This document shows positions 51,001-54,000 of a stretch of DNA of 64,000 nt, piece after piece; position 1 is the first letter of the stretch, and the number at the start of each line of letters is the position of its first letter. The stretch lies in the NCBI RefSeq assembly GCF_041248615.1, contig NZ_CP158426.1. One strand, given 5' to 3'. The stretch is from Escherichia coli. GTDB lineage: Bacteria > Pseudomonadota > Gammaproteobacteria > Enterobacterales > Enterobacteriaceae. Made by a program: the position numbers.

Positions 51001-54000
51001 GGATATCGGTTGGAATGATGTAGGAGCATGGTCTTCGCTTTGGGAATTAGGGAAAAAAGACTCCTCTGGTAATGTTATCACGGGAGACATCGTTTGCCAC
51101 GAGACAGAAAATAGTTATATTTATACTGAGTCTGGATTGGTAGCAACTATTGGTATTCAAGATCTTGTTATTATTCATACTAAAGATTCATTACTGGTTT
51201 CCAGACGTGATTCAGTACAAAATGTAAAAAATATTGTTCAGCATCTTGATTTGTCAGGACGTAAAGAACATAAAGAACATAGGGAAGTATTCAAGTCATG
51301 GGGACGATGTGACTCCATAGATAGTAGTGAAAAGTACCACTATCAGGTCAAACGAATAACAGTTAATCCAAGTGAAAAATTATCGTTGCAATTGCATCAT
51401 CACCGTGCGGAACATTGGGTTGTTGTAATGGGGATTGCTAAAGTTACAGTTGCAGAAGAAATAAAAATTTTAAAAGAGAATGAGTCTGTATATATTCCTG
51501 CAGGTATTAAGCATAGTTTGGAAAATATTGGGACAATACCACTTGTGTTAATAGAAGTTTGGACCGGTTCTTATCTTGCTGATGATGATATCCTTCGATT
51601 TGAAGATTGATATGGTAGAGCTTAGAAATAGAGAGTCTTAATAATGCTAACTTGCTTTAAAGCTTATGATATTCGCGGGAAACTAGGCGAAGAACTGAAT
51701 GAAGATATCGCCTGGCGCATTGGGCGTGCCTATGGCGAATTTCTCAAACCGAAAACCATTGTGTTAGGCGGTGATGTCCGCCTCACCAGCGAAACCTTAA
51801 AACTGGCGCTGGCGAAAGGTTTACAGGATGCGGGCGTCGATGTGCTGGATATCGGTATGTCCGGCACCGAAGAGATCTATTTCGCCACGTTCCATCTCGG
51901 CGTGGATGGCGGCATTGAAGTTACCGCCAGCCATAATCCGATGGATTATAACGGCATGAAGCTGGTGCGCGAGGGGGCTCGCCCGATCAGCGGGGATACC
52001 GGACTGCGCGATGTCCAGCGCCTGGCAGAAGCCAACGACTTCCCCCCCGTTGACGAAACCAAACGCGGTCGCTATCAGCAAATCAATCTGCGTGACGCTT
52101 ACGTTGATCACCTGTTCGGTTATATCAATGTCAAAAACCTCACGCCGCTCAAGCTGGTGATTAACTCCGGGAACGGCGCGGCGGGTCCGGTGGTGGACGC
52201 TATCGAAGCCCGCTTTAAAGCCCTCGGCGCACCTGTGGAATTAATCAAAGTACACAACACGCCGGACGGCAATTTCCCCAACGGTATTCCTAACCCGCTG
52301 CTGCCGGAATGCCGCGACGACACCCGCAATGCAGTCATCAAACACGGCGCGGATATGGGCATTGCCTTTGATGGCGATTTTGACCGCTGTTTCCTGTTTG
52401 ACGAAAAAGGGCAGTTTATCGAGGGCTACTACATTGTCGGTCTTCTGGCAGAAGCGTTCCTCGAAAAAAATCCCGGCGCGAAGATCATCCACGATCCGCG
52501 TCTCTCCTGGAACACCGTTGATGTGGTGACCGCCGCGGGCGGCACTCCGGTGATGTCGAAAACCGGACACGCCTTTATTAAAGAACGTATGCGCAAGGAA
52601 GACGCCATCTACGGTGGCGAAATGAGCGCCCACCACTATTTCCGTGATTTCGCTTACTGCGACAGCGGCATGATCCCGTGGCTGCTGGTCGCCGAACTGG
52701 TGTGTCTGAAAGGAAAAACGCTGGGCGAACTGGTGCGCGACCGGATGGCGGCGTTTCCGGCAAGCGGTGAGATCAACAGCAAACTGGCGCACCCCGTTGA
52801 GGCGATTAATCGCGTCGAACAGCATTTTAGCCGCGAGGCGCTGGCGGTGGATCGCACCGATGGCATCAGCATGACCTTTGCCGACTGGCGCTTTAACCTG
52901 CGCTCCTCCAACACCGAACCGGTGGTGCGGTTGAATGTGGAATCGCGCGGTGATGTACCGTTGATGGAAGAAAAGACAAAACTTATCCTTGAGTTACTGA
53001 ACAAGTAATTCAGTAATTTCATATAAATGGGTTTTAAAAAACGGAAAAGATGAGATATCCGGTGTGGTATAGCCAAGGTAATGCTATTCAGTATCTCTAT
53101 GAGTGAGTTAACATCTATACCACATTTAAGCCGCACACTTCGCGGTGACCACCCCCTGACAGGAGTAAACAATGTCAAAGCAACAGATCGGCGTCGTCGG
53201 TATGGCAGTGATGGGGCGCAACCTTGCGCTCAACATCGAAAGCCGTGGTTATACCGTCTCTATTTTCAACCGTTCCCGTGAAAAGACGGAAGAAGTGATT
53301 GCCGAAAATCCAGGCAAGAAACTGGTTCCTTACTATACGGTGAAAGAGTTTGTTGAATCTCTGGAAACGCCTCGTCGCATCCTGTTAATGGTGAAAGCAG
53401 GTGCAGGCACGGATGCTGCTATTGATTCCCTCAAACCATATCTCGATAAAGGCGACATCATCATCGATGGTGGTAACACCTTCTTCCAGGACACCATTCG
53501 TCGTAACCGTGAGCTTTCTGCCGAAGGCTTTAACTTTATCGGTACCGGTGTTTCTGGTGGTGAAGAAGGTGCGCTGAAAGGGCCTTCCATTATGCCTGGT
53601 GGGCAGAAAGAAGCCTATGAACTGGTTGCGCCGATCCTGACCAAAATCGCTGCAGTGGCTGAAGACGGTGAGCCATGCGTTACCTATATTGGTGCTGATG
53701 GTGCAGGTCACTATGTGAAGATGGTTCACAACGGTATTGAATACGGTGATATGCAGCTGATTGCTGAAGCCTATTCTCTGCTTAAAGGTGGCCTGAACCT
53801 CACCAACGAAGAACTGGCGCAGACCTTTACTGAGTGGAATAACGGTGAACTGAGCAGTTACCTGATCGACATCACCAAAGATATCTTCACCAAAAAAGAT
53901 GAAGACGGTAACTACCTGGTTGATGTGATCCTGGATGAAGCGGCTAACAAAGGTACCGGTAAATGGACCAGCCAGAGCGCGCTGGATCTCGGCGAACCGC

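What the first reader, a model, noticed from the sequence alone, without database searches (positions are those of the whole stretch)
53064..53123. 9-bp perfect inverted repeat bracketing 42 bp in the manB-gnd spacer
Seen in sequence: 'gtggtatag' (53064-53072) and 'ctataccac' (53115-53123) are exact reverse complements, upstream of the gnd start. The interval sits at the junction where the cpsG-like manB tract ends and core sequence resumes. It could be a regulatory operator in the gnd promoter region, an RNA structure, or a recombination scar.
Basis: seen in the sequence. Interest (0 to 1): 0.2.

Follow-up and report, generated by a model that had tools for sequence, protein, structure and literature searches.

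The report
Inverted repeat flanking the gnd promoter
A real 10-bp inverted repeat surrounds the predicted promoter of the housekeeping gene gnd, just after the O7 O-antigen genes; relatives with manB next to gnd share its outer part, but nothing shows the two halves work together, so it is ordinary and low priority.

Summary
The repeat exists and is one base longer than reported: TGTGGTATAG (53063-53072) and CTATACCACA (53115-53124), 42 nt apart. The window is an E. coli O7 O-antigen region (manC-manB-163 bp spacer-gnd). About 3.4 such repeats are expected by chance per 64 kb, and 0.5% of simulated 163-bp spacers contain one.

The 42-nt interval holds the likely gnd core promoter. That is GCTATTCA plus a TAACAT -10 inside TGAGTTAACATC, a block invariant upstream of gnd in at least nine enterobacterial genera. 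The right arm covers about -7 to +3. The left arm sits at about -59 to -50, in spacer sequence that travels with manB (434 of 5426 E. coli genomes; also Citrobacter, Enterobacter, Pluralibacter).

Across 18 distinct relatives only the outer 6 bp (AGTGTG/CACATT) stay complementary. The inner pairs are perfect here but broken in at least five lineages and in ATCC 25922 (O6), and pairing does not exceed column shuffles.

Best reading: two separately conserved promoter-region motifs that happen to be complementary, sharpened in this lineage. It is not a terminator, a mobile-element relic or a recombination scar. A stem-loop in manB-to-gnd read-through RNA, or a paired operator, remains possible. 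Low interest.

The parts
53063..53072 (+). Left arm TGTGGTATAG, about -59 to -50 from the inferred gnd start site. It lies in the spacer sequence that travels with manB.
   Evidence: Positions TGTG..A..G are invariant or nearly so in 18 distinct manB-linked spacers from several genera. Present in 434 of 5426 E. coli genomes; in every such locus read, manB/cpsG is the adjacent upstream gene.
53115..53124 (+). Right arm CTATACCACA. It immediately follows the -10 hexamer and covers the discriminator and inferred start site (about -7 to +3).
   Evidence: The CCACATT part is conserved upstream of gnd in many Enterobacteriaceae with or without manB, while the five bases after ATC vary.
53073..53114 (+). 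42-nt interval between the arms, containing the predicted gnd core promoter.
53083..53090 (+). GCTATTCA, a conserved -35-region motif. The best hexamer is TTCAGT 53087-53092, 16 nt from the -10.
   Evidence: GCTAT(T/C)CA recurs at a fixed 14-nt distance from GAGTTAACATC in many genera. In a rough sigma-70 matrix built from recalled frequencies it scores 7.1 bits, which is not above shuffles.
53104..53115 (+). TGAGTTAACATC block holding the predicted -10 hexamer TAACAT (53109-53114).
   Evidence: An exact-pattern scan found it upstream of gnd in 33 enterobacterial species genomes from at least 9 genera. It aligns, offset by 2 nt, with the K-12 -10 TATACT (the K-12 start site is recalled, not checked).
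53120..53122 (+). Inferred gnd transcription start (not measured).
   Evidence: Inference from 7 nt downstream of TAACAT and from alignment with the K-12 leader, using the K-12 start 56 nt before the ATG as recalled from Nasoff, Baker and Wolf 1984.
53130..53146 (+). gnd leader hairpin GCCGC-ACACTTC-GCGGT. A separate feature, downstream of the repeat.
   Evidence: RNAalifold on 34 distinct leaders gives 5 conserved pairs, a variable loop and a few compensatory changes. It also forms in the 200-nt fold.
51644..53008 (+). manB (annotated cpsG in the matching genome), last gene of the O7 cluster. The cpsG-like tract is 51648-52970.
53172..54578 (+). gnd (6-phosphogluconate dehydrogenase).

Best explanation
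The two arms are two different pieces of the manB-linked form of the gnd promoter region, not one functional unit.

The right arm is the stretch between the -10 hexamer (TAACAT) and the first transcribed bases of gnd. The left arm is an upstream motif (TGTG..A..G) at about -59 to -50, which belongs to the spacer inherited together with manB. In all relatives these two motifs are complementary over their outer 6 bp (AGTGTG / CACATT).

In the E. coli O7/B lineage, two adjacent transitions in the left arm (AC to GT, relative to the Citrobacter-type TGTGACATAG) made the match perfect over 10 bp. This happened either by chance or by a template-switch event that copied one arm from the other.

Shown: position, distribution, conservation pattern, and lack of excess pairing. 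Inferred: the promoter assignment, the start site, and the absence of a joint function.

On this view gnd is transcribed from the enclosed promoter. The left motif may act on its own as an upstream protein-binding element. The hairpin potential is a by-product.
For: 1. The interval between the arms holds TGAGTTAACATC and GCTATTCA. These are conserved at fixed spacing upstream of gnd in at least 9 enterobacterial genera, so the arms flank a promoter rather than forming a compact site.

2. The right-arm core CCACATT is conserved even in species and E. coli O-types that have no left motif. In those, in-register complementarity is 0-7 of 16, close to the random value of 4.

3. On 18 distinct manB-linked spacers, 71.2% of cells in the 16-pair repeat are paired, against 70.1 +/- 0.8% when the 3' letters are shuffled within columns (79 of 500 shuffles reach it). 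The covariation score is 0.103 against 0.096. The pairing therefore follows from the make-up of the columns.

4. RNAalifold keeps only the outer 6 pairs, at -1.29 kcal/mol, with no compensatory pair.

5. The inner five pairs are perfect here. They are 0-2 of 5 in E. sichuanensis, Citrobacter On2M, Citrobacter 18056, and metagenome loci L075, L058 and L090.

6. ATCC 25922 (O6) carries an uncompensated G to T at 53072. The class with one mismatch in 78 bp includes strains 536 and O6:H16; Nissle 1917 and CFT073 are at 98.8% over the 163-bp spacer.

7. 92% of E. coli genomes lack the left arm entirely and still have gnd.

8. Thermodynamic support is weak: z = -2.1 locally and -0.04 in 200 nt.
Against: 1. 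The left motif is more conserved than its flanks in spacers from E. coli, Citrobacter, Enterobacter and Pluralibacter. Its invariant positions (TGTG, G) face the invariant positions of the right arm (CACA, C), and its variable positions face variable ones. A stem or a pair of equivalent sites would give exactly this pattern.

2. Pairing each left block with its own right block gives more complementarity than pairing it with right blocks of other sequences: 10.06 vs 9.39 of 16, permutation p about 0.0002-0.002. Relatedness of the sequences inflates this.

3. 'Cells changed on both sides' is 10 vs 5.5 +/- 1.5 in shuffles.

4. A separate lineage (L062) has its own 11-bp perfect repeat at the same place, with G-C replaced by A-T.

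5. In 14 of 18 sequences the minimum-energy RNA fold uses the in-register stem.

6. The promoter and start site are inferred, not measured. The simple consensus scan found no promoter and my rough matrix score is not above shuffles.
Confidence: 0.5

Rival explanations
1. RNA stem-loop in read-through transcripts. The O-antigen operon has no recognisable terminator after manB, so some transcripts run into gnd. In these the two arms pair (10 Watson-Crick plus 2 G.U pairs) and enclose the 42-nt promoter sequence. The stem could protect the 3' end of the O-antigen mRNA. It could isolate the gnd leader fold from upstream RNA. Or it could be a processing site that gives gnd mRNA a 5' end close to the promoter-derived one.
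For: No terminator-like site was found in 52900-53300. The stem forms in the minimum-energy and centroid folds of both the 78-nt and 200-nt segments, and in 14 of 18 related spacers. The outer 6 bp are conserved across genera, and the G.U at columns 8/71 is kept in 16 of 18. L062 has a different but perfect 11-bp stem. The left arm occurs only where manB, a transcribed gene, lies directly upstream.
Against: There is no excess pairing over column shuffles, and the alifold energy is only -1.29 kcal/mol. The inner pairs are broken in at least 5 lineages and in ATCC 25922 (O6). A 6-bp stem closing a 54-nt loop would not be stable in those relatives. Stability in context is not above shuffles. No Rfam family matches. 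Read-through itself is not shown.
Confidence: 0.22
2. Pair of protein-binding sites. The same regulator binds both arms, whose centres are 52 bp (about five helical turns) apart, and loops out or occludes the gnd core promoter. A weaker form is that only the left motif is a binding site. In Citrobacter and Enterobacter it reads TGTGACATAGATCAGC, resembling the CRP consensus TGTGA-N6-TCACA.
For: The left motif is conserved while its flanks vary, and the conservation pattern of the two arms is symmetric. The Citrobacter/Enterobacter module CAGTGTGACATAGATCAGCAAAAGCTATTCAT is nearly invariant. It matches the recalled CRP core in 8 of 10 positions. A third manB-linked spacer type (Cedecea, Enterobacter Cy-643) has TGTGAGTTGCATCAAA, matching 9 of 10.
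Against: The copy in this window (TGTGG-N6-CAAGG) matches the CRP core in only 5 of 10 positions. The site centre would be about -51.5 from the inferred start (about -47.5 in the Cedecea type), which is not a standard CRP activating position (established knowledge, recalled). A single half-site repeated 52 bp away is not how known dimeric regulators bind. The variable inner bases of the right arm change freely. No regulator is identified.
Confidence: 0.15
3. Recombination scar or mobile-element relic. The arms would be the ends of an inserted element, or mark the junction where O-antigen cluster DNA was joined to core DNA.
For: The right arm lies inside the zone (53104-53161) where homology with other O-types begins. 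An ISAs1-family remnant lies near gnd in O157.
Against: Breakpoints differ between O-types and none coincides with both arms. The sequence between the arms is the promoter block conserved in at least 9 genera, so it was not inserted. The arm sequence has no other copy in the window with up to 1 mismatch apart from two unrelated single hits. The 78-bp segment occurs once per genome. There are no flanking direct repeats.
Confidence: 0.03
4. Intrinsic terminator of the O-antigen operon.
For: It is a hairpin placed after the last gene of the operon.
Against: The stem has only 4 G-C pairs of 10. The loop is 42 nt. The hairpin is followed by TTTAAGCC, not a U run. The terminator scan finds nothing.
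Confidence: 0.02

Closest known systems
E. coli K-12 gnd promoter and leader (Wolf laboratory: Nasoff, Baker and Wolf 1984; Barcak and Wolf 1988; Carter-Muenchau and Wolf 1989). Recalled from memory; the papers are not in the searchable library.
   Same: Same gene, same Shine-Dalgarno region and same leader hairpin. The -10 hexamer and start site align to within 2 nt of the K-12 ones.
   Different: K-12 has a different -10 (TATACT). Upstream of about 53141 its sequence is unrelated apart from a faint resemblance around GCTATT. It has no left arm, so no inverted repeat. The TAACAT form found here is the widespread one among Enterobacteriaceae.
Intercistronic stem-loops in polycistronic bacterial mRNAs (REP-type stabilisers, RNase III processing stems).
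   Same: A hairpin between the last gene of an operon and the next gene, with no U tract.
   Different: REP elements are G+C-rich and multi-copy. This repeat is A+T-rich (4 G-C of 10) and single-copy, and has a 42-nt loop. RNase III stems are usually about 20 bp. No Rfam match.
CRP (cAMP receptor protein) binding sites, TGTGA-N6-TCACA.
   Same: The left-arm motif starts with TGTG. Relatives have TGTGA-N6-TCAGC or TGTGA-N6-TCAAA.
   Different: The window copy matches only 5 of 10 core positions. The position relative to the inferred start is non-standard. Binding is untested.
Quasipalindrome (imperfect inverted repeat) correction by template switching during replication, described in E. coli mutation reporters (recalled).
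   Same: An imperfect ancestral repeat (8 of 10, as in C. braakii) differs from the perfect one here by two adjacent bases. Those bases are exactly the complement of the other arm.
   Different: The spacer of 42 nt is long for this mechanism. The direction of change is not established. Two independent transitions would give the same result.

Membership tests
Rho-independent terminator | G+C-rich stem with a short loop (3-8 nt) | tested here: not met
   4 G-C of 10 pairs and a 42-nt loop. No terminator-like site in 52900-53300.
Rho-independent terminator | Run of T/U directly after the stem | tested here: not met
   The stem is followed by TTTAAGCCGC.
Repetitive or mobile element (REP/BIME, MITE, IS ends) | Multiple copies per genome, or terminal repeats flanked by a target duplication | tested here: not met
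   One place per genome in 436 E. coli genomes. No second copy of the arms in the window. No flanking direct repeat. The interior is a conserved promoter.
Described cis-regulatory RNA (Rfam 15) | Match to a covariance model at or near its gathering score | tested here: not met
   Only two sub-threshold hits in 52500-53700, neither on the repeat.
Structured RNA element (generic) | Pairing maintained across relatives beyond what column composition gives; compensatory changes | tested here: inconclusive
   71.2% paired vs 70.1% in shuffles. 5 pairs have double changes vs 3.0 +/- 0.9 (28 of 500 shuffles reach it). Slid controls give 22-44%. Alifold keeps 6 pairs at -1.29 kcal/mol. 14 of 18 minimum-energy folds use the stem.
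Sigma-70 promoter (for the enclosed interval) | -35 and -10 hexamers at 16-18 bp spacing | tested here: inconclusive
   TTCAGT-16-TAACAT matches 3 of 6 and 4 of 6 positions. It is not reported by the consensus scan and its rough matrix score is not above shuffles. The block is nevertheless invariant across at least 9 genera at a fixed distance from gnd.
Sigma-70 promoter (for the enclosed interval) | Mapped transcription start | not testable with these tools
   No start-site data were reachable for this promoter type. The Cappable-seq supplements held nothing for the K-12 position.
CRP binding site | TGTGA-N6-TCACA core | tested here: not met
   The window has TGTGG-N6-CAAGG, 5 of 10. Relatives match 8-9 of 10, counted by eye against the recalled consensus.
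Operator with two half-sites | Occupancy of both arms by one regulator | not testable with these tools
   No binding data. Only the geometry is known: centres 52 bp apart.

The most novel reading that the evidence does not exclude
Wherever manB is the last gene before gnd (E. coli O7, B, O6 and others; Citrobacter; Enterobacter), a promoter-enclosing stem-loop forms in O-antigen operon read-through RNA. It acts as a processing or insulating element, so that gnd mRNA made from the upstream operon has the same leader, and the same growth-rate control, as mRNA made from gnd's own promoter.
Probability: 0.12. Interest if true: 0.4.

Novelty: new member of a known kind. Interest (0 to 1): 0.15.

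Why it matters
The repeat itself matters little. At most it is a small cis element affecting how the housekeeping gene gnd is expressed next to one class of O-antigen clusters.

The more useful by-product concerns the gnd core promoter, which is not part of the invariant E. coli backbone. It is exchanged together with the O-antigen cluster. The well-studied K-12 promoter is an atypical form, and the TAACAT form seen here is the one shared across Enterobacteriaceae. Anyone extrapolating gnd regulation from K-12 to B, O6 or O7 strains should take this into account.

Tried and rejected
1. Terminator: rejected.

2. Rfam families: nothing.

3. Mobile-element relic or recombination scar: rejected.

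4. Small ORF 53081-53281 starting in the loop: its ATG is not conserved in relatives, so it was dropped.

5. By-eye comparisons with sigma-54, Fis, IHF, GntR, Cra, marbox, RcsAB, ops, dif and integron attC consensus sequences, all recalled from memory, gave no convincing match. These are leads examined, not tests.

6. An alternative class II CRP promoter (-10 AATACT/ATTACT at alignment columns 45-50) fits some Citrobacter and Enterobacter spacers. It does not fit this window (ATGAGT), and it leaves the conserved GCTATTCA unexplained.

7. Antisense-strand hairpin: the + strand A.C mismatches of Citrobacter-type spacers would be G.U on the - strand (inner pairs 70 of 90 vs 53 of 90). This rests mostly on one recurrent column pair, and - strand folds are no more stable than shuffles.

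8. Literature. Searches for the gnd promoter, manB-gnd intergenic repeats and B-strain start sites found nothing relevant. Barcak and Wolf 1988 is not held. The Cappable-seq supplements had no entry near the K-12 gnd start.

9. A rough sigma-70 matrix (recalled frequencies) ranks TTCAGT-16-TAACAT best upstream of the leader, but not above shuffles.
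Full report
**What is there.**
The window matches E. coli WP4-S18-ESBL-07 at 100% and carries an O7 O-antigen cluster. The gene order is rfbBDAC-wzx-vioAB-...-wzy-...-wbbD-manC (50186-51610)-manB (51644-53008), then a 163-bp spacer, then gnd (53172-54578), ugd, wzzB and the his operon. The reported repeat is present. It is one base longer than stated: TGTGGTATAG at 53063-53072 and CTATACCACA at 53115-53124, with 42 nt between the arms.

**Chance.**
In first-order Markov simulations of the window, perfect inverted repeats of at least 10 bp with loops of 3-60 nt occur 3.4 +/- 2.2 times per 64 kb. The window has 14. Among those read, the repeats at 38595-38648 and 57137-57170 are G+C-rich and followed by T runs, as terminators are. 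A whole-window reader would therefore meet such repeats by chance. Within this particular 163-bp spacer the probability is 0.5%.

As RNA the 78-nt segment folds at -19.4 kcal/mol (z = -2.1). As DNA it folds at -7.8 kcal/mol (z = -1.75). In 200 nt of context the stem persists, but overall stability equals that of shuffles (z = -0.04). The simple scans report no promoter and no terminator, and no Rfam family matches.

**Distribution in E. coli.**
The full spacer, or the 78-bp repeat region, occurs once per genome in 434 of 5426 complete E. coli genomes. In every such locus I read, manB (annotated cpsG) is the gene next to gnd. By identity over the 78 bp:
- 111 genomes are identical, including B strains REL606 and ATCC 11303.
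- 180 genomes are 95-99% identical.
- 143 genomes are 90-95% identical.

In the remaining 92% of genomes, homology to the window begins at a point that depends on the O-type:
- 53104 in wbuC-linked clusters.
- 53116 in O157.
- 53125-53131 in several others.
- 53141 in K-12.
- 53150-53161 in many.

There is therefore no single junction at the repeat, and gnd does without the left arm in most strains. The cpsG-like tract of manB (51648-52970, 96.4% identical to the colanic-acid cpsG at 29223-30545) ends 93 nt before the left arm.

**What lies between the arms.**
An exact-pattern scan with TGAGTTAACATC-N5-CAYATT (window 53104-53126) hit the region just upstream of gnd in 33 enterobacterial species genomes. 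The genera are Citrobacter, Enterobacter, Pluralibacter, Cedecea, Kosakonia, Trabulsiella, Leclercia, Lelliottia and Buttiauxella. A second motif, GCTAT(T/C)CA, lies a fixed 14 nt upstream of GAGTTAACATC.

I read this as the ancestral gnd promoter, with -10 TAACAT at 53109-53114, a weak -35 TTCAGT at 53087-53092, and a start near 53120-53122. It aligns to within 2 nt with the K-12 -10 TATACT and with the K-12 start 56 nt before the ATG. That K-12 start is recalled from Nasoff, Baker and Wolf 1984 and was not checked; the paper is not in the library, and a Cappable-seq supplement search found nothing.

The promoter assignment is an inference. The hexamers are weak and my rough matrix score is not above shuffles. 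If it is right, the right arm covers about -7 to +3 and the left arm about -59 to -50, so the repeat encloses the core promoter.

**The left arm in other genera.**
I ran an arm-neutral metagenome scan (CTATTCA-N14-GAGTTAACATC). Together with the genome hits it gave 18 distinct spacers that align without gaps (alignment A1). They come from E. coli, Citrobacter, Enterobacter and Pluralibacter. In almost all of them manB ends about 100 nt upstream (tblastn).

The left motif TGTG..A..G is invariant or nearly so, while the sequence on either side of it varies. In Citrobacter and Enterobacter the module reads CAGTGTGACATAGATCAGCAAAAGCTATTCAT. gnd promoters without manB keep the -10 block and CCACATT but have nothing complementary upstream (0-7 of 16 in register).

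**Is the pairing selected?**
Evidence against selection:
- On the 16-pair repeat, 71.2% of cells are paired. Shuffling the 3' letters within columns gives 70.1 +/- 0.8% (79 of 500 shuffles reach the observed value). Slid registers give 22-44%.
- The complementarity is therefore real at the level of the two consensus motifs (outer AGTGTG/CACATT, plus G18-C61) but is not maintained sequence by sequence.
- RNAalifold keeps six pairs at -1.29 kcal/mol with no compensatory pair.
- The inner five pairs are 5 of 5 in the O7/B type, 4 of 5 in Pluralibacter and L069, and 3 of 5 in C. braakii and L062. They are 0-2 of 5 in E. sichuanensis, Citrobacter On2M, Citrobacter 18056, L075, L058 and L090.
- ATCC 25922 (O6) has an uncompensated G to T at 53072.

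Evidence for selection:
- Pairing of each sequence's own left and right blocks exceeds pairing across different sequences, p about 0.0002-0.002. Relatedness of the sequences inflates this.
- Double-change cells exceed every shuffle, 10 vs 5.5.
- L062 has its own 11-bp perfect repeat, with G-C replaced by A-T.
- 14 of 18 minimum-energy folds use the in-register stem.
- The conserved and variable positions of the two arms mirror each other.

**Interpretation.**
The most economical reading (confidence 0.5) is that the arms are two separately constrained pieces of the manB-linked gnd promoter region. One is the discriminator and start region common to all enterobacterial gnd promoters. The other is an upstream motif that travels with manB. 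Their consensus sequences happen to be complementary over six bases.

The perfect 10-bp form in this lineage differs from the C. braakii form (same right arm, left arm TGTGACATAG) by two adjacent transitions. Those two bases are exactly the complement of the other arm. This could be chance, selection, or a single template-switch correction of a quasipalindrome.

Two rivals remain open. One is a stem-loop that forms only in manB-to-gnd read-through RNA (0.22). The other is protein binding to one or both arms (0.15); relatives have CRP-like TGTGA-N6-TCAGC or TCAAA, but the window copy matches only 5 of 10 positions and the position is non-standard. Terminator, mobile-element relic and recombination scar are rejected.

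**Comparison with what is known, and novelty.**
The closest known system is the K-12 gnd promoter and leader. The leader hairpin (53130-53146) and the ribosome-binding region are shared, and the hairpin is conserved in 34 distinct leaders. The K-12 core promoter differs and has no repeat.

I found no description of this repeat in the searchable literature. It is best filed as one more intergenic inverted repeat of unproven function: a new member of a known kind, of low interest. The side observation is worth more. The gnd promoter is swapped along with the O-antigen cluster, and K-12 carries an atypical version.

Noticed in passing
window 51648-52970 vs 29223-30545: The O-antigen manB is 96.4% identical over 1323 bp to the colanic-acid cpsG in the same window. 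The adjacent manC is only about 67-70% identical to cpsB in short patches. G+C jumps from about 0.35 to about 0.57 at 51700. This looks like a gene-conversion tract between the two paralogues.
   Followed up: partly
window 53130-53146: gnd leader hairpin GCCGC/GCGGT with loop ACACTTC. It is conserved in 34 distinct enterobacterial gnd leaders, with variable loop length and sequence and a few compensatory changes (G-C to A-U, C-G to U-A).
   Followed up: partly
window 53104-53161; loci L007-L015: E. coli O-types carry different sequence immediately upstream of the gnd leader. Homology to the window starts at 53104, 53116, 53125-53131, 53141 (K-12) or 53150-53161. The gnd core promoter is therefore exchanged together with the O-antigen cluster, and K-12's TATACT promoter is not the common enterobacterial form.
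   Followed up: partly
window 53104-53115; loci L016-L056: TGAGTTAACATC is invariant upstream of gnd in at least 9 enterobacterial genera. That is more conservation than a -10 hexamer alone needs. It contains the palindrome GTTAAC.
   Followed up: partly
L018, L036, L040, L042, L045, L069, L073, L075, L090 (about 45-75 nt upstream of GAGTTAACATC); L028, L035: Citrobacter and Enterobacter manB-gnd spacers carry a nearly invariant 32-nt module, CAGTGTGACATAGATCAGCAAAAGCTATTCAT, with a CRP-like TGTGA-N6-TCAGC. The Cedecea-type spacers have TGTGAGTTGCATCAAA, shifted by 4 nt.
   Followed up: partly
L062 (metagenome SKEK01002173.1) 2953-3030: A divergent E. coli-like manB-gnd spacer has its own perfect 11-bp inverted repeat, TGAATGTGATA / TATCACATTCA, at the same place as the window's repeat. 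The sequence partly differs, with G-C replaced by A-T at one pair.
   Followed up: partly
window 14761-14772 and 38841-38852: GGCGGTAGCGTG (the ops sequence within a JUMPstart-like context, CCAGGGGCGGTAGCGTG) lies upstream of the colanic-acid cluster and upstream of rfbB.
   Followed up: no
window 38595-38648, 57137-57170, 3159-3207: Three strong inverted repeats at gene ends. Those at 38595-38648 (after galF) and 57137-57170 (between convergent wzzB and hisIE) are followed by T runs and look like terminators. The one at 3159-3207 lies between convergent ORFs and has no T run after it. They account for part of the window's excess of perfect inverted repeats of at least 10 bp (14 observed vs 3.4 expected).
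   Followed up: no
alignment A1, columns 13-14 / 65-66: The A.C and C.A mismatches of Citrobacter-type repeats on the + strand would be G.U wobbles on the - strand. Inner pairs are 53 of 90 Watson-Crick and 70 of 90 with - strand wobble. This is mostly one recurrent column pair, so the evidence for an antisense structure is weak.
   Followed up: partly
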